DNA of 56,371 nucleotides, counting the filler, from Dirinaria sp. TL-2023a (lineage: Eukaryota), in NCBI GenBank assembly GCA_051941275.1. It is 4 parts of 4 records of this genome, joined end to end, with 100 filler letters (N's around TTAATTAATTAA, not from the genome) between each part and the next. Parts side by side here need not be neighbours in the genome. Positions count along the whole stretch, not along the records: positions 28,258 to 42,266 come from JAVEBF010000633.1; 3 more parts are not named here. One strand, written 5' to 3'. Positions 14,040 through 42,366 of the stretch are shown here, piece by piece. The notes under the pieces were generated by a model. The model saw only the letters and a program-made list of their open reading frames with translations, was not told the DNA's origin and searched no databases. How positions within the stretch are numbered: the first letter of the stretch is position 1; each line of letters starts with the position of its first letter. The position numbers and the translations under genes are program-made.

Positions 14040-14139
14040 NNNNNNNNNNNNNNNNNNNNNNNNNNNNNNNNNNNNNNNNNNNNTTAATTAATTAANNNNN
14101 NNNNNNNNNNNNNNNNNNNNNNNNNNNNNNNNNNNNNNN
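14040..14139. other. Artificial contig linker (N44-TTAATTAATTAA-N44)
   Basis: 100-nt spacer with a six-frame stop core at 14084-14095; identical to the other two linkers. Confidence 0.98.
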
Positions 14140-24394: not shown

Positions 24395-27225
24395 TCACTT
24401 CCTATCAGGTCTCGGCTTGCTCAATCGAGCTCTCTTTTTCTTGTCTTTGCTGTCCTCCCCCTGTCCACTACGTATGCTGCTAGGCGCCGGACTAACATCT
24501 CTCATGTTTGAACCCATTGGCCTCGGGCTTGCACCTCTCACTAAAGGCTCACGCTGCTGAATTCTCTGCTCAAGCTCAATACCTGCCTCGTCACCTGTGG
24601 TCGTACGCATCAGCGGCATTCGACCCAGCGGGCTACGATTAGATCGGATTTCCGGTTGTGCGAAAGGTGATGTGGAGCGGCCTCGGCGCTCATTATGGGG
24701 TGCAAGCGTCGCTTGAGTAGGTGGGGACAGGTCGTGGTACCCATCTTGTGGGAGTTCGGCGCTGAGACCTGATGGATGAGTTGGCAGGAAAGATGGTGAG
24801 CGCGAGGCCGTACTGAGACGATCAGCGCGCAGGTAATCCTGTCCTTGGCTGTGACTATGATAATCAGTACCCAGAGACTCGACGGATTCCGTCCAATCGC
24901 CCTTGTGATCGCCATCGTCACTCATCTCGTAGACATGACCGCCCTGGTGATGCGGCTCAGCATAGGAAATACCAGATTCGCGCTGAGCTTGCTGCGCAAA
25001 GAAGTATTTACGTCGATCCTCGTCGCCCATGATCGATTCGACGCGCCGAGGCATATAGACAGAGTTACCCGCTGATGCACTCGTGATAAATGAGTCGAAA
25101 GAGTCGCGGGGATGAAGCGGAATGCGAGGCGCGTTGGGGTCTCGAGGTAGCATATTCGGTAGCGTAAGGCCAGAATCGTTGTTTTGCATATACCACCCAC
25201 CCGGTAGACGCTCGGCAGGGGCGAACCGGCCTTCAAGACGATCTGCCGGTTGAAGCGGAACTCCGAGTGGCTTGTCCGGGTGACGCTCTTGTACGGCGGG
25301 CTTGAATGTTTCTGGCACGACATTGAGGTCATCACCAGTGGCTTCGGCTTGCTCAATGGCTTGTTGTGGTGTGGTACCAGCATCCGCTTTGCCAGCGTCT
25401 GCCCGAGGACCTCCCCAGGTACGTTGGCCGGCAGTGAAGATGCCATAAACCATGTAGACCCAATTGAAGAAGGGGTTTATGATAAACATAACTGGATAGA
25501 GCCAGATCTTGAAGCGGCGGAGCTTAGCACCAAAGTACAACATGAGAAGCCAATTGAGTCCAAGAGAGACGGCAATAAAACCGACCGGCAGGTTTTTGAT
25601 CTTATTCGAAGTCGTAATGATCGAGAGAACCATGATAAAGAACAGCAAGGCCGTGGTTCGAATAGTGTTCTGCATGAACCGAACAATGCAGAGTAGTGGA
25701 TATCGCTTCCAAAGCCGGACATCAGTCAGCATGCAAACCTCATTGGTTATGAAACCGAGAAACCATCGTCGTCGTTGCTTCAGTAAACTTCGATACGTTT
25801 GGACGGCTTCAGTTTTGCAGAACGCGCCAGTGCAGAGCTGTATTTGATATCGCTCCTTTGCGCCGATCATAAACAAGTGCGTAAGCCAACGGTCTTCCCC
25901 GAGATGGCATTTGCCATAGTCGAAGAGATCGTCACATTGCTCTGCTTTATCCGCGAAGTAGTATTTAGCCATTTTACGAAAGGCCGAGAATCGAAGCATG
26001 GTAAGTGCTCCAGGGAGACAGGTCACAGCGCCACACCCAGACTCGACCGAGCGTTCGAAGAGTTGCCCGTGGATGTACTCCATATCCTGAAGGAGGGTGA
26101 TCAAAGAGTTCTTTTCAGTTGTTGAGGTAATTATTCCAGTCATAGCCAGCATGTTTTGCTTACTTCCCGGCTTGAGCTCCTATGAACATCTAATCAGCGG
26201 CCATACCATGGGGCAAAATGAGCCTCAAAAGAGTGCCTGAAATCAAGTCTGTTTTTGGTATAATATGACTTACCATCTCGTACATAAAGTTCTGGATGCA
26301 CACTTTATCCAGGATGCAGTCAGAATCGATAAACAGTATAAAGAGGTTATCGTTGCGCTTCAGGTACTCCGTGTAGATCTTATCAATGAGCCTGAAGGTC
26401 GACTTCTGGCAATGCCGCTTTCCTCCATGAGGAAATCTCGACACGGTAATCCTTGCATCCTTATATGTCACATCGATACTCTTCGGATAACTCTCTAAGG
26501 TCAGCGGAACACCCAGCATCTCGATCGTCTTGAGATAGAGCTCGTCCTCTTGGTCGCCATCAAAGGAAAGAAAGACGTGGATGCACGAGGGAGGATAATC
26601 GCAATCAACTACAGAATTGATGGCGGTCACCAAGACTTCCGGCTCTTCCTTGTAAACCGGCATAACGATCACCGTTTTCGGCGCCGATGTCTCATCCAAG
26701 GCATGCTTTATCCTCTTCGTACGTCCTAGCGAGTTTGTGACAAGCTGGTAGATACAGAATAGCCACGGGATAGTGAGTAGACCGGCGAACGACCAGAAAG
26801 CGAACCATTGCATGAAGGAAACCATTCCATGGGGGTAATACTGTGTGACTCGCGCAGGAAGAGGAAGCGTGACGATCATGATAGGCAGGAAAATCAACCT
26901 GTTCCCGGACGTAAGCTCTTATCCTACTTCCAAATTGCACCCTTGCTAACCTCAAAGCGGAGAAGCCGATCATCATAACAACGGCCAGTAACCTGATGCT
27001 CCAATGCTCCGCTTTCTTGAAGACCTTAATCAAGCAGTAAAGGAATGCTGCCAGCCACAAGAACCATTCCAAGAAGGCTGCCATCATGACTGTTCCCATG
27101 ATAGACACATAAACGATCTATGTCTCCAATCAGCACTCGATTCCCCGCATCGTGCCAGTGTCCCGTCTTACATCTTGATCCGGCCATTTGGCGGTGATCG
27201 GCGGTATACCGTTATCGTTCGCCAT
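24395..27225 (-). CDS. chsD: Chitin synthase, ChsD type (division 3; class VI or VII depending on scheme)
   Basis: Exons 27225-27172, 27117-26951, 26898-26274 and 26179-24395. N-terminal TM helices and no myosin motor; motifs GGKR, FIDSD, LQDMEY, CLPGA, LGEDRWL and QRRRW. Confidence 0.9.
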
Positions 27226-28157
27226 TGTACGCAGGTGGAGGACTCAGAGGTCCTTGTTGTACGAGGAGAATTTTTGCACGTGAGGAGATAAGGTATTGAG
27301 TCCCACAATCAGGAATTATGCAAAATAAAGCAGTAACGTCGAAGCGAGGCCTTGGGATGTGGCTGGATGGAGATTCGACTAGATCCTCAAATTTTTGGTT
27401 AGTCAGAGTGTGATGATCAATGCGGACACTTGATAATAGAACCAATGTTTAGCTTGGATGTAGAAACTTGTTGCGGATTTTACTAACCTTCGGGGTTGTA
27501 GATTGAAGTCCACTACCAGCTATAGGTTCAAAGGAGGGGAAAAGAAGGTCCACACAGAAGATTGTGGATGGCCGCTGAACATCAATGGTGTCGCATTTTA
27601 GTGATTCAAAATCCCCTTGGTTCTGATCTCGACGACAATACCGCTTCTGGACAACTATATTGGAGTTTGAAATGTAGGCAGTCCGGCCTTTACGTGATAA
27701 TGCGCACGGCCGACGCAAAGTGACACTGATGCAGTGGTTGGTGGTGAAGGTTTATGGAAAAGCGGCAGACACGCAAAGGAAGTAAGCGAGTGACTAGGGG
27801 AGAACAATGTTAGAACTGGAAGGGAAGAAAGACGAGATTCTTGACTTGATCAGGCATGACCTTGGGAGGGCAGGCAAAAGAGTGGAAGTTGGTAAGGTCG
27901 GTGGGTTTTTGCTAAGCCAAGGGCAGGGAGAAGTTAGAGGCAGTTAATACCTGATACTTGGTACGCTAGAGTAAGGTACTCGTACCACGGGTAGCTCCTG
28001 TAGTACGTTTAAGTTACAAAGATGTCTACCTAGCTGACTTAGGTACCTAAGGTAGCCGAGGTACCTTAGGTATGGAGGTATGTTACTGAGGTAAAAGCTA
28101 ACGTGGCAAGCGGTCTCAGCGGTCCCTGAGTCATGATTATTACCCACTGTTATTTTC

Positions 28158-28257
28158 NNNNNNNNNNNNNNNNNNNNNNNNNNNNNNNNNNNNNNNNNNN
28201 NTTAATTAATTAANNNNNNNNNNNNNNNNNNNNNNNNNNNNNNNNNNNNNNNNNNNN
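28158..28257. other. Artificial contig linker (N44-TTAATTAATTAA-N44)
   Basis: Same 100-nt spacer as at 14040. Confidence 0.98.
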
Positions 28258-28316
28258 CCCTGAGAACCCTGGGAGGTGTTGCCCCAGGTAGTATACCAGG
28301 TGCATGCTCGTAACAG

Positions 28317-28828
28317 TCGTAGCAAAATATAAAAAATATAATACAATTAGAAAAAAATACTGAAAAATAAAGAAAAAAAAACGATATGAAAAACACTAAA
28401 TTTGAAAATATTAACGCAAACAGTAACTCTAAAAAAAAATAATTATTTTCTAAAAAAATACAAAGCTTTTAAATTAATTTGAGAAATCAATTATAGAAAA
28501 AAACGATAAAAAATATGATATATGAGTATCAAATGCATTAAATCGACAATTTCTTGTCGCAGCATGAAATAGAAGATAAATCCGGAGACGATAATGTCGA
28601 ATAAAATCGTCTCAAAAAACCAACATAATATAAATAAACAAATCGTCAAAAGAATTACGCGATTGCAGATTACACGATTTTATTTTTGAGACAGATGTAA
28701 GAAGACAAAAGTGAGACACTGAGACACTCTCATTGATTAAATAGTATGACTCATGATCGTATAGCTAGTTTTGATAGGATGGACTCCGAGTGCTTAATGA
28801 CGTAATCAATTAATCAATTAATCAATCA
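28317..28828 (+). mobile_element. AT-rich degenerate repeat relic ending in an (AATC)n tail
   Basis: Very A-rich, with no credible ORF. Ends in AATCAATTAATCAATTAATCAATCA (28804-28828), i.e. (AATC)6 with two CpA>TpA changes. Confidence 0.5.
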
Positions 28829-29158
28829 TCGATTCAAAACCGTTCTAAAACCAGGTTAGAAAATGGCGTAATGCCCGTAAGATAAGGTCGGCCCGAGGCT
28901 CTGGATTCCAATGTTCGTTGACATGCGCATAACGAAGTAGCTCTCGAGGTGGCTAAACGGTTTCGAAACAACGATACACAGCATTGTCCGATACTTGACG
29001 AGGACTGGCCTTGCATAGATTCTTATCCTTTGTGCACGTATCTGAGCGAGATGGAAACTTTCAAACCGAAGTCAGGCCAGCACTACCTCGAGCGAAAAGC
29101 GGATCCTGCCTCTAGAGATTTCCAGAACACACTCAGAAGGTAGCTCACCAAACTGAAT

Positions 29159-29836
29159 GTGGTCAAGACTAACTTCCCAGCAAGACCTCTTACATCATCG
29201 CTCGACCAGGATGAGAATTCTTCTGGATTGCAGGGAAAGCTCGCACCTTCTCGCATATACACACAGGAAACAAAGCCGGGAACTAAACACAGGACTTTCC
29301 ATGTATCTCGCGCTGTAGAGCCCACACGGTCGACAGCAAGCGCAAATGGCCACTACGACTCTCGAATTCATCCGACACAGAATAGCTACCCTTTTACGGC
29401 ATCTCGCAAGGCTAAATCCTGCGAACCTAGTCAGGGCGACCTAAATCGTGTCGCACTCCAACGTTCCGGTAGGATAACGCTTCCTCTGGAGACCAAGAAC
29501 CTCGAGCTTCTTTCGAGCAGAGGACCCTCTACAGGTCATGTCCACAAGCATGGTGGCAGCGCAGCACTCTTGCACGCTTCACGTTCTCAGCCCCATAGCC
29601 GCGACACATTATCCTATTCACGTCATGATTCTCAAGGGAATATGAAGACCGAAGCCTTTCGTCCTCAGCGGCTTACAGATGATAGCAATTGCATTGTGGA
29701 GGTTGTGGAGGAGATTGCTAAGCCAACTAGGTCACCTCACTGTCATATTCCGGGGACGCAGCAAAGACGTTCTCGAGAATTTTACAGGCCAAGTACAAGG
29801 GGTTCAACTTGGAATCCAAGGAAGATAAAGTCGTAG
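29159..29836 (+). other. Orphan S/R-rich low-complexity ORF (225 aa, GTG start); coding status uncertain
   Basis: Long open frame with a possible ACTAAC..CAG acceptor at 29180, but the nearest donor (29140) is out of phase with the upstream ATG ORF. No recognisable motif. Confidence 0.25.
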
Positions 29837-30054
29837 GGGTTAGCCATAGCAGAGATCCTTCGTGGCATAACACAAGAGATATCAGTGATATTATCGATGA
29901 AAGCTTGGGTTAGATCTCGACGATGATATTCAAGTTCGACCACATTTGTCACAATCTATGAGCTTGTTGCTCGTACACGCAAATCTACCTTCGGGTATTG
30001 CGGTATCAGATGTAGCATGTATTCTCCAATGCATGTCTGCATGCTCGCATATCT

Positions 30055-30419
30055 TACTCGTATTCATCTACTTTGTTGCCTCATCTACCTTAAGGTACTT
30101 TGTTGCGAGGGTTAGGGTTACCCTCCACCAAAATTCTTCCAACTCTAGCTTACCTTACTTACTCGTACTCACCTACCATACTTTCTTGGGTCACCTACTT
30201 TCTTGGGAGGGCTAGGGTTATTTCACCAAGAACCCCATAACCCTAAGTAAGGTAGGGTTGGAGGGATTTTGGTGGGGGTAACCCTAACCCTCCCAAGAAA
30301 GTAGGTAGGTAGGTGAGTACGAGTAAGGTAGGTTTTCGGCGTTTTTGGTATGATAACCCTAACCCTCGCAACAAAGTACGTGAGGTGAGGCAACAAAGTA
30401 AGGTAGATGAATACGAGTA
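30055..30419. repeat. Nested inverted repeat of four ~65-bp modules, each containing GAGGG(T/C)TAGGGTTA (telomere-type TTAGGG)
   Basis: 30095-30120 is a perfect reverse complement of 30354-30379. 30055-30071 pairs with 30403-30419, 30069-30083 with 30386-30400, 30194-30220 with 30279-30305 (1 mismatch), 30159-30177 with 30308-30326, and 30107-30147 with 30253-30292. Confidence 0.9.
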
Positions 30420-30801
30420 GAGGTCCTTAGAGGGAAGGGCTACGTACCTTAAGGCGTTAAGATGCTAAGGTACCTTATCTACCTTAGGTACCTACCTTGA
30501 CAAGAGCTGTAATTTTACAACAATATGGTAAGGTATTGGAATATAACATACGATTCTCTTGTATCTTTACTAGACGCTACAATGGCAGCCCAATCCTGGG
30601 GTTCATCTAGTACTTAATGTAGTGCTAGGTACGTCTTAGCAGGGCTCGAGGCAGGTCTTTCAAAAATTTCCGGTCCTTCGCAAAATCAGTACGCTTCCTG
30701 GATAGCAATAAATACAAGTGTAGCCTCTACAGTTGGCTCATGCCGTCCAAAGGATTGATGGATGCATGAGTCTAGAACGAGAGTATTGTCAAGTCTGCAA
30801 A

Positions 30802-31753
30802 ATGGAGACGATTTCTGAAATACCTTTTGGCTGCCACTATTATTCCGACCCAAAAGAGATGCCATGGGACGTTCAGAAGTGCGACTTGACTATTAAAACT
30901 TAGACTTTCCCACTGAATGGTCGGTAGGTACTGGCATCAACGCTACAGCATTTTCTCCAAATATGACGATGGTATCTGGATGACTGACGACGCATGGTTT
31001 GGTGTTACTCCAGAGCCCGTAGCGTGGTAAGAGAGCTCTTCGATCGGTATACTGTGTTACTGAACTGGCACCCAGCAAGATAGCCCAGCATGTATCTGAG
31101 GCAGCATCAGCCAAAAAAGCAGTTTTGATAGATTGCTTCGCTGGCGTTGGAGGCAACACCATAGCTTTTGCACGATCTGATCGATGGACAAGGGTGTACG
31201 CTATTGAAAAGAATCCTCACGCTCTTGCTTGTGCGAAACACAATGCGCGACTCTACGGCGTGCACAACAAAATCTCCTGGTATCTGGGGGATTGTTTCGA
31301 CATTATTTCAGGTCAACTTCGAGACCTCCACCAGTATGCTGTGCTTTTCGCCAGTCCTCCATGGGGTGGTAGGCTAGGAGTCAATCAGATGGTGCGAAGC
31401 CTCCCATGCAACGGCTGACCTCGACTAGGTCCAGGATATTGTTCGGAATCTGTGTTTGACCTTACAAGAATGCAGCCTTACAACTTGTCCGAACTCCTCG
31501 AACCGTTCCGGAAGCATTCTGACAGCGTCGCTTTGTACTTACCTCGAACTTCTGACCTAAAACAATTGGCTCGGCAACCTACGACAGTTGGCAAGACCAC
31601 AGTCATCCACTACTGTATAGAAGGCGCGAGTAAGGTATGTTGCACGCCAAGATGGAGCTTTATATTGGCCAGTATCAGTGATTGCTAAGACTTACTCAGG
31701 CCCTCTGTGCGTACATTGGTGATTTCAAATTCGATTGGCTGCACATAGCGTGA
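30802..31753 (+). CDS. TGS1: Trimethylguanosine synthase (RNA cap hypermethylase)
   Basis: Exons 30802-30878, 30928-31026, 31076-31368, 31429-31634 and 31700-31753. Motifs KYWHQRYSIFSKYDDGIWMTDDAWFGVTPE, IDCFAGVGGNTIAFA, FASPPWGGPGY and LYLPRTSD. Confidence 0.95.
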
Positions 31754-31767
31754 TATCAAGGACCCTG

Positions 31768-32500
31768 TGATTGATTGATTGATTGATTGGTGGCAGCTAT
31801 TTCCTAATTCCAAGGAGCATTTGGGTCAAAGTGTCCTCACAAACAGCTCGTATTCATGTTTTAAGTATCTTATACTGAAGTGCATGCACATGAGTGGTGG
31901 GCCATTCCCTGCGTTGTATGATACTGTCTAAGAATGGGCTCAGCCGATTCGTTCTCCTCCAGCAGCAAGCAATGAACAGTTAAACAATAATAAACAATAC
32001 ACGTAAGAGCTCGTCTGAAAAAATGAGTCCCTGATCGAAATACTGCTTGACGATCATCGCTCGTTAACGTTGGAAAAGCATAGATCATATGATCTCGCTC
32101 GTCATTGATGCGAGATAGATCCATCGGTTTAACTTGATCTCACGATTTGACTCAAACTCTTTCTCTTAGATATTTTTCTTAAGCTTAGCCGTCTCAATTG
32201 CAAAAATTCGAATTTTGTATAGTTTGAGTGACTGTCGAAGGCTCTGTCAGCCTGAATCGACTCCACTACAAAAGTGTATGCTGAATGGTTTCTGACTTGC
32301 ATTAGAAGTTGTAATGAGTTGCGGAATAAGACTGAGCTACGATGTGTTCACTTAATCAATTCAGGTATTGATTTATAGAGTGAGTGCATGTCTTTAGTAC
32401 TTGCTTGAGACTCAGGCATCTCTGTGTCTTCTGATTTCTCAAGCTTGCGCTGTGCAGCGCAGTCTGCAGCAAAATATGTTTTTGGTTATGACTGTGCACA
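31768..32500 (-). mobile_element. Possible degenerate repeat relic ending (minus strand) in an (AATC)n tail
   Basis: (TGAT)5 at 31768-31787, 14 bp after the TGS1 stop. The adjoining sequence is AT-shifted with no credible ORF. The right boundary is approximate. Confidence 0.3.
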
Positions 32501-33077
32501 CCGGTAGTAGGAGAGGCTATGACATATAAGAACTATCCAAGGTAGCCAATGTCGAGGTCCTGGCGATTTGAATGCTTGTTTCTGACGCCATTGTTGGAGC
32601 TCTTATCTCTGAAATCGAGCGTTGACGGATTAAATTATAAGTAAGTAATCTGCACCTGATCTCAGTAGAAAGCTAGAGACGATCTCGGCAAACAAGCATG
32701 ATTGCCTTATGCCAGACTGGATAAGAATCTACAATTCAGCTACAGTGGGTACTCTGAGGTGATTGGAAGGTACGTGACTAAGGTAAGGTAGGTGAGGTGG
32801 TGTTGGGAATGATTTTCAACCCTAAACCTAATATTGTTTCACTAAGGTAAAGTTAAGGAAACACCTAAAGTAAGGTACGGTAAGGTAAGGTAAGATCTTA
32901 CCTTATCTTAACTTTCATTCGTCGCACTACCTAGCGGATAGGCAAGCCATGAAATCAATGTGAGCTCACAAGAACCTCCCTTCCTGCATCCGACATCAAC
33001 CCAGGAGTAGGGGGTATACCCTCTTATCCCAAATTCATATTTCATTTCGAACGTGAAGCCAGTGCCAGAACTCTATC

Positions 33078-36000
33078 ATGCCCCATGCAACAGTGTCCCA
33101 GGATGCAGAAGACGAGAGAATCATAGCTCAAGCCCTCGATCTTGAGAATCCCTTCGATTCCCCGTTTAATGTTAATCGTGAGCTTGACACGGGAGAAAAG
33201 GCAGACGATGCGGTAGACTTCGGCGACTTGGGTGATGATGACCTGGCCGACGAAGAGGACGAGGAAGATAACGGCAGTGTGCCTGCAGAAGTTGTCAGTG
33301 GTTCGGGGGGTATCAACGGATCCTTGGACGACCTCGATTACGCCTCTGGGGAGGGACTGATTTTCGATCAAGGAGCTGGCAATGGCACCCATGGAGAGGG
33401 TGATGATGATCTCTTCGGTGAACGTTCGTCATCGCCGCTTGAGGATGGCATTTTGGTAGAGGACAGTGGCCGCTTGAGAACAGCCGCTATCACATCTGTT
33501 GGACCAAGCAAGGTTTCGGTCACTCAGACTGATCTCAGCACTCGGTCACTTCCAGATGGTGCGAAAGTACTTGAAGGCTATGATAAGGCCTATCAGACTT
33601 TGCTTCCTGTAGCTACTGTAGGCGCCAGGGATGGACTTCTGTCCAAAGAACAACAGCTACAACAAGATTTGTTTGCTATGTCAGGAGCTGTCTTTGGCAA
33701 GTTAGATTCTGTGCCAGTCATAGAAACCCAGGATGATTTATTAGCCGCTTTATGGCCTCGATTCGAGCGCGATACTGTACCTAGATTTATGGATCTGCTC
33801 CCACCCAAGAAAGCTCGTTACACTGGCAAGACACCATTACGGCGGCCAAAGCCAGTACAGCCAACGAAATTGAATTTGGAGATTGCTGGTGATCAAGAGA
33901 AAGCATTTAGGTTCTTCTCGTCAAACAGAAAGCCTCAAGAGCATCTTGGCCAAAATGGGATCATCACAATTCTGGACACGAGATCTGAAAACGAGCAGGA
34001 CGAAAATAGTGAGGATATGAATTCCGACTTCGAAGAAGAACCGGTCGGTGGTGTTTTGTGGCAAGACTTACAGCTCATCTGTGGCGATTGGGATGCACAG
34101 ATCTCGACGGATATGTCAAGTCCGGATCCATCTGAGCTCGAATTGAAGGACAAAGATGATATCTTTGTCGACTTAGTAGGAAACCTTGAGGATCAGTCGG
34201 AATTGCCATCAGCCAAGGTGAGCTTAAAGCAAGATACAGAAGAGCGCTCGCTAATTACTGATAGAGGAGGAAATTGGGATCGACTCCAAGCGAAGTCTTA
34301 CGTACTTCTCAACTCTCTTTTCCTCCTCTCCACAACCCAGAACATACCACTGCGAAGATTGCCAAAGCAGTGACTCTAGATCTAAATGATGCACATATCC
34401 TGGTTAACCTTGATCAACCCATCAAAGGACCCAAGAACGTAAATCTGAACACGCTCAAAGGCGATACACGTCGTGCTTTTCTGAAGGGATTGAATCGAAG
34501 ATACAATATATCCAATGACGAAGCGTACGACCTTTTGAAGGAGAACCATCAAAGCAAGGTCCGAAGCACTCTTGGGAGCATGGCTATAGATCATAGTCTG
34601 CCTGCTATCAAATTACAGTGGCCATTTGTAAGCATCGGACCTTTTCCATCGTATTATTTTTAAGGATGTACATTACTGACATTCTGTAGTATTCTACCAG
34701 AATGCACAAGCAGCAAGCGCGATCATTTCATAGGCCTCAAATACAGTTTGCTCGCAATGAAAGTGTCAATTTTAACAAGCCCAAAATAATAAAGAAAAAG
34801 CACCTCCGAGGACGAGACATCCACAGCATTTTCTCTTCCGCAAAGGATCTTTCCCTCGGCGACAACTCAAGCGTCCTACTGCTTGAGTATTCGGAGGAGT
34901 ATCCTATCGTGCTATCAAACTTTGGCATGGGAAATCGGCTAATCAATTATTACCGACGGCGAAACATGGATGACGTGTCAAGACCAAAACTCGATATTGG
35001 TGAGACATCGATCTTGCTTCCGCAAGACAAAAGTCCATTCTCTATATTTGGTCACATTGATCCAGGTGAGAGGACGTCTGCTTTGCATAACGCCATGTAT
35101 AGGGCACCTGTGTTCAAGCACGAGCCCAGATCGACAGATTTTCTTGTAGTACGAAATAGGAGTGGGGAAGTCGGCCATACATACTGTATGCGAAATATCG
35201 AGAACCTGCATGTAGTCGGGCAAGAATTTCCTTCTGTTGATGTCCCTGGTCCACACTCTCGGAAAGTCACGACAGCCTCGAAGAATCGCTTGAAAATGGT
35301 GTCCTTTCGACTGCTTCGTCAGAGCGATAACGGGCAGATTCCAGTAGGCGATGTTACAAAGCATTTCGGAGACAGCACAGATATGCAGGTCCGACAGAAG
35401 ATGAAAGAATTTCTCCAATTTTCTAAAGAGAGTAAAAATTGGACGATGCGTCCTGGTGAGGCAATCCCAGACGAGGACTTCATTCGGGCTATGGTCAAAC
35501 CCGAGGATGTCTGCCTTCTTGAATCAATGGAGGTCGGCCAACAGCATTTGCAAGATGCCGGTTTCAGTAAGGGGGATGAGCAGTCTGAAGATGAGGAGGG
35601 CAAAGAAGGTCAAAGTATTGAGCAGCAGCTTGCACCCTGGTATACCTCTCGAAATTTTCTTAATGCTACGCAGGGTAAAGCCATGCTTCAGTTGCATGGT
35701 GAAGGTGACCCATCTGGTCGAGGGGAAGCCTTCAGCTTCATCAAAACTTCAATGAAAGGCGGATTTAAGGCAGTCGGTGAGAGCGTTGAAGACAAAATAG
35801 ACGCTAAAAAATTAAAAGAGCTGGGTGGACATAGCTACAATGTTGCTCGGCAGCAAAAGTCTTACGAGGAGTCAATTCGTCGCATTTGGGAGGCTCAAAA
35901 GCAAAGCCTCGCATCAACAATGGAACAGTCCGACACCGAATTTGACGATGAGCAATCTGAGACTGCTGAAGAATCGGTCACTGACACTAGGACGCCGCGA

Positions 36001-36816
36001 TCTGAATTGGAAACACCATCCATAGCACGCCGACGAGACGATGAAACTACAAGCCAATTCAGTAAGATGAGCACCAACAGCCAAGCTGGCAAGATCCTCA
36101 AAATCACTCGTAAAGTTCGGAACAAGTACGGAGAAGTCAAGCAAGAGGAGGACATCATCCGTGATCCGCATGTAATTCACCATTACGTCAAGATACGGCA
36201 AGCGAAAGACATCGATAGCACCAGGTAGCTAAGCGCACGCAACTTTCCAAGATCTTTCACTCACAAATCGTGCAGGGTCGAGGAGTGCAACCCTACCGGC
36301 GATGCAGACACAGATCAACGTCGTCGGCAGAAGTAGGGCCTGCACCGATTGCTTTCTGTAGCTCTAACTAATTGATTTAGGCTTGAAAAGGAACTTTCGA
36401 GGCTTCAGCGCAACAAAGAGCGACGTCTTGCGCGTGACAAGCAGAAAGGTGTCTATACTGACGGTGCTGCTGAATCGCCAGCCTCGCCAGGCGACTCTCG
36501 AGCGGCCATTCCGGCAGTGAAGCCGGCAGGAACTCAGCGGAAGTGTGCTAATTGTGGACAAGTCGGGCACATCAAAACGAACAAAAAGTGCTTTCTACCA
36601 TCTCCTTGACGTTATACTTGACACCTTGATGAGCATCTCCTACCTTTTTTGACGCCATGGCACCCCTTTCCCCCTCTTCTTCGACCCAATTGGGCATAGG
36701 GATGAATGCTAACAGCGTCACGCTGCAACAGGCTTTGCCCTCTGCTCAACGGAACGATGAAGCAGGAGGATGGGTTCGCTGATGGTGCGTTCGCCATGGG
36801 CGCTTCAGCGTTCTAG
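33078..36816 (+). CDS. TAF1: TFIID subunit 1
   Basis: Exons 33078-34217, 34265-34627, 34690-36224, 36276-36332, 36381-36587 and 36732-36816. Motifs GEKADDAVDFGDL, YNISNDEAYDLLK, LLEYSEEYP, LHGEGDPSGRGEAFSF, GGHSYNV, and C-terminal zinc knuckle RKCANCGQVGHIKTNKKLCP. Confidence 0.96.
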
Positions 36817-42266: not shown

Positions 42267-42366
42267 NNNNNNNNNNNNNNNNNNNNNNNNNNNNNNNNNN
42301 NNNNNNNNNNTTAATTAATTAANNNNNNNNNNNNNNNNNNNNNNNNNNNNNNNNNNNNNNNNNNNN
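42267..42366. other. Artificial contig linker (N44-TTAATTAATTAA-N44)
   Basis: Same 100-nt spacer as at 14040 and 28158. Confidence 0.98.

What the first reader, a model, noticed from the sequence alone, without database searches (positions are those of the whole stretch)
30055..30419. 365-bp four-module nested palindrome built around telomere repeats, ~380 bp upstream of TGS1
Seen: a module TACTCGTA(T/C)TCA(T/C)CTAC..TACTTT(G/C)TTG(C/G)GAGGG(T/C)TAGGGTTA occurs twice forward (from 30055 and 30160) and twice reversed (ending 30325 and 30419). A fifth TAACCCTAA lies near the centre (30238-30246). The outer arms include a perfect 26-bp pair, alternative pairings (module 1 with 3, 2 with 3) are possible, and the ends are TA..TA. 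Established: TTAGGG is the usual Pezizomycotina telomere repeat and a Tbf1/Tay1-type binding site; Tgs1 hypermethylates snRNA and telomerase RNA caps in yeasts. Inference: a foldback/MITE family carrying telomere-protein sites (perhaps one copy nested in another), a structured RNA, or a promoter element coupling TGS1 to a telomere-binding factor. The adjacency may be chance.
Basis: partly seen in the sequence, partly recalled or inferred. Interest (0 to 1): 0.7.

Follow-up and report, generated by a model that had tools for sequence, protein, structure and literature searches.

The report
Nested foldback transposon with telomere boxes
The 365-bp palindrome upstream of the TGS1 gene of this lichen-type fungus is most likely two small non-coding "jumping" DNA elements, one sitting inside the other, each carrying short telomere-like motifs in its arms, and so is probably a fairly ordinary mobile-element relic.

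Summary
Four homologous modules (two forward, two reversed) fill 30055-30419. Each has the same 17-nt end, 1-2 subterminal repeats and a two-unit telomere box, and none occurs elsewhere in the 56-kb window. The DNA hairpin is far beyond chance (z -19).

Best reading (about 0.6): two copies of one ~170-200-bp foldback MITE. Copy B (30160-30325) lies in the central TA of copy A, in the opposite orientation.
- Arms within a copy are 98% identical up to the telomere box; between copies they are 85-91% identical.
- The inner segment of A's left arm matches B's right arm (28/32), not its own partner arm (15/28; P=0.005).
- Both copies are TA-flanked.

Not shown: genome copy number, an empty site, or a transposase. 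No genome is held, and no copy turned up in public scans or in 259 kb from relatives.

The TGS1 link is weak. Relatives have no such element, but telomere hexamers are enriched 5.6-fold in their TGS1 promoters (4 of 11 representatives). No RNA family fits.

Verdict: a new variant of a known kind, of moderate interest.

The parts
30055..30419 (.). Whole four-module palindrome (copy A interrupted by copy B)
30055..30159 (+). Copy A, left arm (module 1). The long TIR is 30055-30120 and the inner segment is 30121-30159.
30326..30419 (-). Copy A, right arm (module 4). The long TIR is 30354-30419 and the inner segment is 30326-30353.
30160..30325 (.). Copy B, 166 bp (modules 2 and 3), inserted at the central TA of copy A in the opposite orientation. 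Its left long TIR is 30160-30220 and its right one is 30279-30325.
30055..30071 (+). Terminal 17-mer of A, left end (T,T variant), beginning with TA
30403..30419 (-). Terminal 17-mer of A, right end (T,T variant)
30160..30176 (+). Terminal 17-mer of B, left end (C,C variant)
30309..30325 (-). Terminal 17-mer of B, right end (C,C variant)
30107..30120 (+). Two-unit telomere-type box at the inner edge of the long TIR (module 1)
30207..30220 (+). Telomere-type box of module 2 (GGGCTAGGGTTA variant)
30279..30292 (-). Two-unit telomere-type box of module 3
30354..30367 (-). Two-unit telomere-type box of module 4
30238..30259 (.). Centre of copy B: TAACCCTAA and TAGGGTT facing each other across 6 nt
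30069..30106 (+). Two subterminal direct repeats TACTTTGTTGC in module 1 (30069-30079 and 30096-30106). Counterparts: 30179-30189 and 30196-30206 (module 2, CTTGG variant), 30293-30303 (module 3), and 30368-30378 and 30390-30400 (module 4).
   Evidence: D4, D5, I9, I12
30595..31980 (+). TGS1 (cap guanine-N2 methyltransferase). This is the extent covered by spliced RNA contigs of a related lichen fungus. The candidate start codons are at 30802 and about 30766.
28924..29954 (+). Upstream gene of no recognised family. It is covered by spliced RNA contigs of the relative that reach 29954, 101 bp before the element.

Best explanation
The palindrome is two copies of one family of small, non-coding foldback DNA transposons (MITE-like, about 170-200 bp).

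Anatomy (shown):
- Each copy has long terminal inverted repeats of 47-66 nt.
- Each repeat consists of a 17-nt end, one or two subterminal TACTTTSTTGS repeats, and a two-unit TTAGGG-type box at its inner edge.
- A poorly symmetric core of about 60 nt lies between the repeats.
- Copy A occupies an intergenic spacer. The spacer runs from 101 bp past the last base of the upstream gene covered by RNA contigs to 176 bp or less before the first covered base of the TGS1 mRNA.
- Copy B lies at the TA in the centre of copy A, in the opposite orientation.

Mechanism (inferred):
- Copy B arrived in copy A by a later insertion.
- A transposase encoded elsewhere, with a TA target as in the Tc1/mariner/pogo group, bound the ends and subterminal repeats and moved the elements by cut-and-paste.
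- The telomere-type boxes lie inside the part of the arms that is kept alike. They are therefore either part of what the transposase needs, or sites for the host's TTAGGG-binding Myb proteins (Tay1/Teb1, Tbf1/TRF-like) that the element carries along.
- The locus thus holds four double and two single such sites within 540 bp of the TGS1 transcript. Any effect on TGS1 is unproven.
For: 1. The four modules are homologous over about 100 nt. Their motifs occur nowhere else in the window.
2. In the long-TIR part, arms of the same copy are nearly identical: M1-M4 59/60 and M2-M3 46/47. Arms of different copies are 85-91% identical. Seven alignment columns carry states shared by both arms of one copy and different in the other copy. 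This includes a G..C / C..G swap present in all 4 subterminal repeats of A and all 3 of B.
3. Identity drops right after the telomere box: inner segments are 15/28 alike within A and 17/26 within B. This is the pattern of conserved TIRs around a free core.
4. The inner segment of A's left arm matches that of B's right arm (28/32). It matches its own partner arm (15/28, P=0.005) and B's left arm (14/26, P=0.007) less well.
5. Where B's two arms differ, 7 columns fit 'A inverted relative to B' and 0 fit 'same orientation'.
6. A with B removed aligns to B better when reverse-complemented: score 155 with 144/166 identical, against score 88 with 131/160. A simple inverted duplication of a tandem pair does not predict this. 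Two insertions of one asymmetric element do.
7. Both copies are flanked by TA on both sides, and no longer direct repeat is present.
8. There is no coding capacity: the longest stop-free stretch is 64 codons.
9. MITE and Tc1/mariner families exist in a lichen-forming fungus (tables of PMC8773270). TA is the required target of the fungal MITE mimp (passage of PMC3599309).
Against: - No third copy was seen anywhere. None is in the rest of the 56-kb window. None is among 33 loci (258,772 bp) from related lichen-type fungi. The 25-nt core pattern has no exact match in the metagenome or prokaryote-genome collections. There is no look-alike in this scan's index.
- The whole genome is not held, so the defining property of a MITE, dispersed copies, is untested.
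- TA may simply be the first two bases of the inverted repeat, so the target-site duplication is ambiguous.
- Insertion of B exactly at the symmetry centre of A is a coincidence that a replication-based palindrome would explain without mobility.
- The second predicted match (A's right inner segment with B's left) is no better than background: 17/26 against 17/26.
- No transposase is among the 16 ORFs scanned, out of 46 ORFs of at least 130 codons in the window.
Confidence: 0.6

Rival explanations
1. This is a local, non-mobile palindrome. A roughly 100-bp module was duplicated in tandem and the pair was then copied in inverted orientation, for example by template switching at a hairpin during replication. 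Gene conversion between modules came later. The starting material could have been a promoter segment that already carried telomere-type boxes.
For: - It is the only locus with these motifs in everything searchable.
- The same genome is noted elsewhere in this scan to hold an array of ~165-bp modules in alternating orientation (note e1-7653329, not checked by me).
- Related fungi carry small facing box pairs in the TGS1 promoter: AACCCTA-N9-TAGGGT in L004/L005 and TTAGGG-N19-CCCTAA in L002. These resemble the centre of copy B (AACCCTA-N7-TAGGGTT).
- The inner copy sits exactly on the symmetry centre.
Against: - An inverted copy of a tandem pair predicts M1~M4 and M2~M3 over the whole module. 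The inner segments instead group M1 with M3 (28/32 against 15/28, P=0.005).
- Sharply bounded, 98%-identical long arms around 54-65%-identical cores look like transposon TIRs, not like one duplication event of a single age.
- Apart from the hexamers themselves, nothing in the relatives' promoters is homologous to the modules.
Confidence: 0.2
2. Whatever its origin, the cluster of TTAGGG-type boxes now works as a cis-element of TGS1. It would bind a Tbf1- or Tay1/Teb1-type Myb factor and act as an activator, a nucleosome-free region, or an insulator against the upstream gene. This would tie cap hypermethylation to the regulon of telomere-repeat-binding factors.
For: - In 11 representatives of related lichen-type fungi, TTAGGG/CCCTAA is 5.6-fold denser in the 500 bp upstream of the TGS1 start than in the rest of the loci. 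The counts are 6 in 5,447 bp against 17 in 86,770 bp (binomial P=0.0018). Four of the 11 have at least one (P=0.015).
- The hexamer is otherwise under-represented: 15 in the window against 27 expected, 4 of them inside the element.
- S. cerevisiae Tbf1 is a transcription factor upstream of snoRNA genes, and S. pombe Teb1 regulates transcription (passages of PMC7952879; PMC7277114).
- TGS1 converts snoRNA caps (PMC7277114).
- Tbf1 acts as an enhancer-blocking insulator (abstract of PMC4551913).
Against: - The enrichment rests on 6 hexamers. L005 and L007 share one conserved box, so there are at most 3 independent cases.
- L014 and L016 fall in one 97% cluster. L013 and L029 were dropped because they hold less than 400 bp of upstream sequence.
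- The background includes coding DNA, so promoters in general may be enriched.
- Seven of the 11 representatives have none.
- The window species has no box at the position conserved in the relatives, and its boxes lie farther upstream, inside a probable transposon.
- A promoter MITE need not matter: promoter deletions of mimp showed no direct effect on two Fusarium effector genes (abstract of PMC3599309).
- No binding or expression data exist.
Confidence: 0.15
3. It is a gene for a structured or hairpin RNA: a small-RNA precursor, or an RNA that contains the telomerase-template-like TAACCCTAA.
For: - It forms a very stable hairpin.
- Rfam hairpin models (MIR5380, MIR1882) score 40-44 bits on 30194-30305.
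- MITE hairpins are known sources of siRNAs in plants. I saw this only as a reference title in PMC3599309.
Against: - All Rfam matches are far below the gathering scores (44 against 150 and 40 against 107).
- The hairpin is explained by the inverted DNA modules.
- The differences between arms are indels and unpaired cores, not compensatory changes.
- There is no independent sign of transcription.
Confidence: 0.04
4. It is an assembly artefact, or a relic of a head-to-head telomere fusion.
For: - Palindromes can be created by chimeric reads.
- The boxes face each other in the G-strand-inward orientation expected of fused chromosome ends.
Against: - The arms differ by indels of 5-19 nt and by 35-46% in their inner parts, unlike an artefactual perfect foldback.
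- Each box has only two telomere units, and the boxes sit in a four-fold modular frame with their own terminal repeats.
Confidence: 0.02

Closest known systems
mimp, the miniature impala MITE of Fusarium oxysporum (Tc1/mariner superfamily)
   Same: - A small non-coding fungal DNA element with terminal inverted repeats.
- TA is the required target site (PMC3599309, passage).
- It typically lies in gene promoters (abstract).
   Different: - The terminal sequences do not match the mimp inverted-repeat pattern printed in that paper.
- Here the inverted repeats are 47-66 nt long, with subterminal direct repeats and telomere-type boxes.
- Here neither the copy number nor the transposase is known.
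Foldback (FB-type) transposons with long, internally repetitive inverted arms (recalled from general knowledge; no paper read here)
   Same: Almost the whole element is made of two long inverted arms that contain short direct subrepeats. It forms a hairpin as a single strand.
   Different: It is much smaller. There are only 1-2 subrepeats per arm. Membership cannot be tested without other copies.
Telomere-bearing elements (TBE) of Oxytricha, Tc1/mariner transposons
   Same: These are DNA transposons whose terminal inverted repeats contain the host's own telomeric repeat (PMC4724952, passages and Table 3).
   Different: - TBEs carry the telomere repeat at the very tip of the TIR, encode three ORFs and duplicate ANT.
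- Here the boxes lie 50-66 nt inside the ends, nothing is encoded, and the flanks are TA.
Telomere-repeat-tailed Penelope-like retroelements of fungi
   Same: These are fungal mobile elements that carry 1-3 TTAGGG units (PMC4522978, passages).
   Different: They are 3.4-kb retroelements with reverse transcriptase. They are subtelomeric and have the repeats at the 3' end. They have no inverted repeats and no foldback.
Tbf1 / Tay1 (Teb1) sites in yeast promoters, and plant telobox elements
   Same: Short interstitial TTAGGG-type motifs upstream of genes, bound by Myb-type telomere-repeat factors that act in transcription or as insulators (PMC7952879 passages; PMC4551913 abstract). For plant TRB proteins and the telobox I saw only the search listing of PMC11287191.
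   Different: No binding, chromatin or expression data exist here. The sites come as part of a probable transposon, not as an isolated promoter motif.

Membership tests
MITE (non-autonomous class II element) | Short and non-coding | tested here: met
   Copy B is 166 bp. Copy A is 199-201 bp once B is removed. The longest stop-free stretch in the 365 bp is 64 codons.
MITE (non-autonomous class II element) | Terminal inverted repeats | tested here: met
   The 17-nt ends are identical within each copy. The long arms are 59/60 and 46/47 identical.
MITE (non-autonomous class II element) | Target-site duplication | tested here: inconclusive
   TA lies on both sides of both copies, but it could be the first bases of the repeat. 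No longer direct repeat is present (3-nt and 9-nt flanks read).
MITE (non-autonomous class II element) | Many dispersed copies with unrelated flanks | not testable with these tools
   No genome is held. There are two copies at one locus only and none elsewhere in the window. Public scans found 0.
MITE (non-autonomous class II element) | Autonomous partner with matching ends | not testable with these tools
   There is no transposase domain in the 16 ORFs scanned, out of 46 ORFs of at least 130 codons in the window. The rest of the genome is not available.
Tc1/mariner-derived (Stowaway-/mimp-like) MITE | TA target and ends related to a Tc1/mariner/pogo transposon | tested here: inconclusive
   The TA flanks are consistent. 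No transposon with these ends is available for comparison.
Telomere-bearing elements (TBE) | Telomere repeat at the extreme tip of the TIR, three ORFs, and an ANT duplication | tested here: not met
   The boxes start 50-53 nt from the ends, there are no ORFs, and the flanks are TA. TBE features are taken from PMC4724952.
Known RNA families (Rfam 15) | A score at or above the family's gathering threshold | tested here: not met
   The best match is 43.9 bits against 150 (MIR5380). All 5 listed matches are below threshold.
Tbf1/Tay1-type promoter element | TTAGGG-type consensus present | tested here: met
   There are four double and two single boxes.
Tbf1/Tay1-type promoter element | Conserved at orthologous promoters | tested here: inconclusive
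   Four of 11 representatives of related fungi have at least one hexamer in the 500 bp upstream of TGS1, a 5.6-fold enrichment with P=0.0018. None of them has the palindrome.
Tbf1/Tay1-type promoter element | Bound by the factor, with an effect on transcription | not testable with these tools
   This needs EMSA or ChIP and reporter assays.

The most novel reading that the evidence does not exclude
This is a fungal MITE family whose conserved long terminal repeats carry the host's telomere repeat as a functional part. The boxes would recruit a TTAGGG-binding Myb protein (Tay1/Teb1 or Tbf1-like), either for the element's own transposition or protection, or as a portable promoter or insulator module. 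By landing upstream of TGS1, whose promoter carries native telomere-type boxes in several related lichen fungi, it would have replaced or multiplied an ancestral link between telomere-repeat factors and the enzyme that hypermethylates snRNA, snoRNA and telomerase-RNA caps.
Probability: 0.1. Interest if true: 0.6.

Novelty: new variant of a known kind. Interest (0 to 1): 0.35.

Why it matters
If the family is confirmed, it would be a fungal counterpart of transposons that carry host telomere repeats in their inverted repeats. So far I found that described only for the ciliate TBE elements (PMC4724952).

I saw no such fungal MITE in the listings of two literature searches.
- 36 papers held all terms and 15 were listed.
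- 17 papers held all terms and 15 were listed.
- I read only PMC4522978 from them. There the telomere repeats belong to retroelements.

Such an element could spread binding sites for telomere-repeat factors to promoters. It would also give a simple test case for whether TGS1 belongs to a Tbf1/Tay1 regulon in filamentous ascomycetes.

If it is only a single-locus palindrome, it is a curiosity of local DNA rearrangement. It would matter little beyond its possible fragility and its effect on one promoter.

Tried and rejected
- **Whole genome.** It is not held, so no copy-number test was possible.
- **Records behind the metagenome loci.** Searching them by handle was answered with 'not held'. I then ran BLASTN with the element against the 33 fetched loci in a script. 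The only hit was one 21-nt match with E=5.
- **Exact 25-nt core pattern.** It had 0 hits in metagenome contigs and 0 in genome contigs.
- **This scan's own index.** It showed no look-alike stretch for the element or for the surrounding 6 kb. There were no notes under the words MITE, telomere, or the combined words, and none near the place.
- **Sequencing runs.** Only 4 RNA runs turned up, all from one lichen-metagenome sample and study, holding 5-8% of the sampled words. Their contigs are 90-99% alike to the window, so they come from a relative. They cover the two flanking genes but not 29970-30504. Contigs cannot show absence, and the relative may lack the element, so nothing follows from this for transcription or presence.
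- **Synteny or an empty site.** The upstream ORF has homologues in only 3 of 33 loci. They lie on the opposite strand, 2.1-4.4 kb upstream of the matched TGS1 exon, so the spacer is not orthologous and no empty-site comparison was possible.
- **Foldback structures in the relatives' promoters.** None was found in the three lineages checked; there are only two unrelated 14-nt pairs.
- **Rfam.** Nothing reached threshold.
- **Telomerase RNA.** I considered it because of the TAACCCTAA. I rejected it because the motif sits in the loop of a four-fold modular palindrome and no RNA family matches.
- **PIF/Harbinger-type 3-nt and Mutator-type 9-nt duplications.** I rejected both because the flanks are not direct repeats (read).
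- **Pairwise re-alignment of the inner segments with free end gaps.** It collapsed for the most diverged pairs. I therefore used the MAFFT columns for those counts.

Full report
**1. The observation**

The stretch 30055-30419 consists of four homologous modules (alignment A1):
- M1, 30055-30159 (+)
- M2, 30160-30246 (+)
- M3, 30247-30325 (-)
- M4, 30326-30419 (-)

Each module starts with the 17-mer TACTCGTAYTCAYCTAC. There are 4 matches in the window, all exact, against 0.00 expected. One or two copies of an 11-nt subterminal repeat TACTTTSTTGS follow (D4, D5, I9, I12). Then comes GAGGGYTAGGGTTA, with 4 matches against 0.01 expected and 0 of 100 shuffles reaching 4.

A fifth TAACCCTAA (30238-30246) and a facing TAGGGTT (30253-30259) sit at the centre. 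The outer arms share a perfect 26-mer (30095-30120 with 30354-30379).

As single-stranded DNA the stretch folds at -126.3 kcal/mol against -43.5 +/- 4.3 for shuffles (z -19.2). Sensitive BLASTN of the four modules against the whole window finds only 10-14-nt chance hits outside the locus.

**2. Surroundings**

TGS1 lies downstream. Two exons match PF09445, the RNA cap guanine-N2 methyltransferase family (E 5.7e-26 and 2.9e-13). The candidate start codons are at 30802 and, in frame, about 30766.

Four RNA runs, all from one lichen-metagenome sample, hold contigs of a related fungus that are 90-99% alike.
- They cover 30595-31980, spliced at GT..AG introns on the + strand.
- They cover an upstream + strand gene from 28924 to 29954, with one intron.

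The element therefore lies in a tandem intergenic spacer. It starts 101 bp after the last covered base of the upstream gene. It ends 176 bp before the first covered base of the TGS1 mRNA. Contigs do not define true RNA ends.

The upstream gene has no Pfam family above threshold. Further neighbours are a chitin synthase gene, a TAF1-like gene (DUF3591) and COG4. No transposase was found in the 16 ORFs scanned, out of 46 ORFs of at least 130 codons.

The lichen-metagenome runs and the related loci suggest that the organism is a lichen-type ascomycete. That is an inference.

**3. Anatomy that bears on the origin**

I split each module at the end of the telomere box into a long-TIR part (47-66 nt) and an inner segment (26-39 nt).

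Long-TIR part:

| Pair | Identity |
|---|---|
| M1-M4 (arms of one copy) | 59/60 |
| M2-M3 (arms of one copy) | 46/47 |
| Pairs from different copies | 85-91% |

Seven columns carry states shared by both arms of one copy and different in the other copy. Among them is a G..C against C..G swap that is present in all four subterminal repeats of the outer copy and all three of the inner copy.

Inner segments: identity within a copy falls to 15/28 (outer) and 17/26 (inner). M1's inner segment instead matches M3's at 28/32. Fisher's test gives P=0.005 against M1-M4 and P=0.007 against M1-M2.

Where the inner copy's two arms differ, 7 columns fit 'outer copy inverted relative to inner copy' and 0 fit the same orientation. 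The outer copy with the inner one removed aligns to the inner copy with score 155 (144/166 identical) when reverse-complemented. It scores 88 (131/160) in the forward direction.

Both copies are bounded by TA on both sides, and no longer direct repeat is present.

This pattern is what two insertions of one slightly asymmetric element would give, the second into the central TA of the first and in the opposite orientation. A single inverted duplication of a tandem pair predicts M1~M4 and M2~M3 throughout, which the inner segments contradict.

A weakness is that the reciprocal match (M4 with M2, 17/26) is no better than background.

**4. What could not be shown**

No genome is held, so the copy number, an autonomous partner and an empty site are untested.
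- The exact 25-nt core pattern has no match in the metagenome or prokaryote-genome collections.
- A scan with one TGS1 exon brought 33 loci, 28 of them from lichen-type fungal contigs with 64-73% amino-acid identity.
- These loci hold no copy of the 14-nt end (0 of 33) and no BLASTN match to the element in 258,772 bp.
- Their TGS1 promoters have no foldback.
- The spacer is not syntenic. The upstream ORF appears in 3 of 33 loci, on the opposite strand.

The relatives are distant, so their lack of the family says little about mobility in this species.

**5. The telomere boxes and TGS1**

Short telomere-type boxes do occur in the relatives' TGS1 promoters.
- L002: a facing pair, TTAGGG-N19-CCCTAA.
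- L004/L007 and L005: a conserved AACCCTA-N9-TAGGGT. It lies about 230-270 bp before the start codon.
- L004/L007/L010: also a two-unit box farther upstream.

I clustered 30 of the 33 loci; L031-L033 were left out as weak matches. This gave 12 clusters. I counted 11 representatives. L013 and L029 were dropped because they hold less than 400 bp upstream. L014 and L016 fall in one cluster.

The counts are:

| Region | Hexamers | Length |
|---|---|---|
| 500 bp upstream of TGS1 | 6 | 5,447 bp |
| Rest of the loci | 17 | 86,770 bp |

This is a 5.6-fold enrichment (P=0.0018). Four of the 11 representatives have at least one hexamer (P=0.015).

This is a lead, not a proof. There are at most three independent cases. 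The background includes coding DNA. Seven representatives have none.

In the window the hexamer is under-represented: 15 seen against 27 expected, 4 of them in the element.

From the literature:
- Tbf1 acts upstream of snoRNA genes in S. cerevisiae, and Teb1 regulates transcription in S. pombe (PMC7952879, passages; PMC7277114, passages).
- Tbf1 works as an enhancer-blocking insulator (PMC4551913, abstract).
- TGS1 makes the trimethylguanosine cap of snoRNAs (PMC7277114).

A functional link is therefore conceivable but unshown. A promoter MITE need not matter: mimp deletions showed no direct effect on two Fusarium effector genes (PMC3599309, abstract).

**6. Mechanism proposed**

Shown:
- the modular foldback anatomy;
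- the two copy types;
- the conserved long arms that end at the telomere box;
- the TA flanks;
- the position in the spacer before TGS1.

Inferred:
- cut-and-paste mobilisation by a transposase, encoded elsewhere, that targets TA and binds the ends and subterminal repeats;
- a second insertion into the loop of the first copy;
- the telomere boxes acting as sites for the transposase or for host TTAGGG-binding Myb proteins.

The boxes lie inside the part of the arms that stays 98% alike while the core decays. This argues that they are part of what is selected when the element moves. That is an inference from two copies only.

**7. Comparison with known kinds**

The nearest kinds are:
- fungal Tc1/mariner-derived MITEs such as mimp (TA target, promoter location; PMC3599309);
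- foldback elements with internally repetitive arms (recalled from general knowledge);
- for the telomere repeats, the Tc1/mariner TBE elements of Oxytricha, whose TIRs contain the host telomere repeat (PMC4724952).

It is not a TBE. Its boxes are internal, it has no ORFs and its flanks are TA.

Fungal elements known to carry TTAGGG units are Penelope-like retroelements (PMC4522978), which are quite different.

MITE and Tc1/mariner families are reported in a lichen-forming fungus (PMC8773270, tables).

I saw no fungal MITE with telomere boxes in the listings. These were title and abstract listings only, apart from PMC4522978.

**8. Verdict**

The structure is real, and I read it as a nested foldback MITE pair with about 0.6 confidence. 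The rivals are:
- a non-mobile local palindrome (0.2);
- a co-opted regulatory role (0.15), which is not exclusive of the MITE origin;
- a hairpin RNA (0.04);
- an artefact or a telomere-fusion relic (0.02).

It is a new variant of a known kind, with interest 0.35. One BLASTN against the full assembly would settle the main question.

Noticed in passing
window 30055-30419 (copy A against copy B): Of the 22 substitutions between the two copies, 10 are C>T or G>A in the direction B to A and 1 runs the other way. All 10 lie at CpC or CpT (or their complements), and none lies at CpA or CpG. This fits the CpC/CpT-directed repeat hypermutation that other notes of this scan report for the same genome, which I did not check myself. 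Four of the 10 are mirror-image pairs in the two ends of A, so they may be inherited from A's source copy and not made at this locus.
   Followed up: partly
L002 4446-4476; L004 4470-4491; L005 4466-4487; L004 4287-4299: TGS1 promoters of related lichen-type fungi carry facing pairs of telomere-type boxes about 230-270 bp before the start codon. One lineage also has a two-unit box farther upstream.
   Followed up: partly
window 32813-32831: A degenerate two-unit telomere-type box (CAACCCTAAACCTAA) lies about 250 bp before the start of the next gene, which is TAF1-like (DUF3591, 33057-36228, +).
   Followed up: no
window 28100-28800: An AT-rich stretch (about 25% G+C) lies between the chitin synthase gene (24395-26918, -) and the gene at 28924-29954. 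It may be a decayed repeat.
   Followed up: no
window 30440-30500: The flank just after the element is rich in TACCTTA / TAAGGTA / GGTACC motifs. It shares 14-27-nt imperfect repeats with module 1 (D2 and D3). Similar motifs occur in the TGS1 promoter of L005. Their meaning is unknown.
   Followed up: no
window 14040-14139, 28158-28257, 42267-42366: There are three pairs of 44-nt N runs at regular spacing. They look like masked stretches, not assembly gaps.
   Followed up: no
whole window: TTAGGG/CCCTAA hexamers are under-represented. There are 15 against 27 expected from base composition, and 11 outside the element. The related loci show a similar density of 0.2 per kb.
   Followed up: partly
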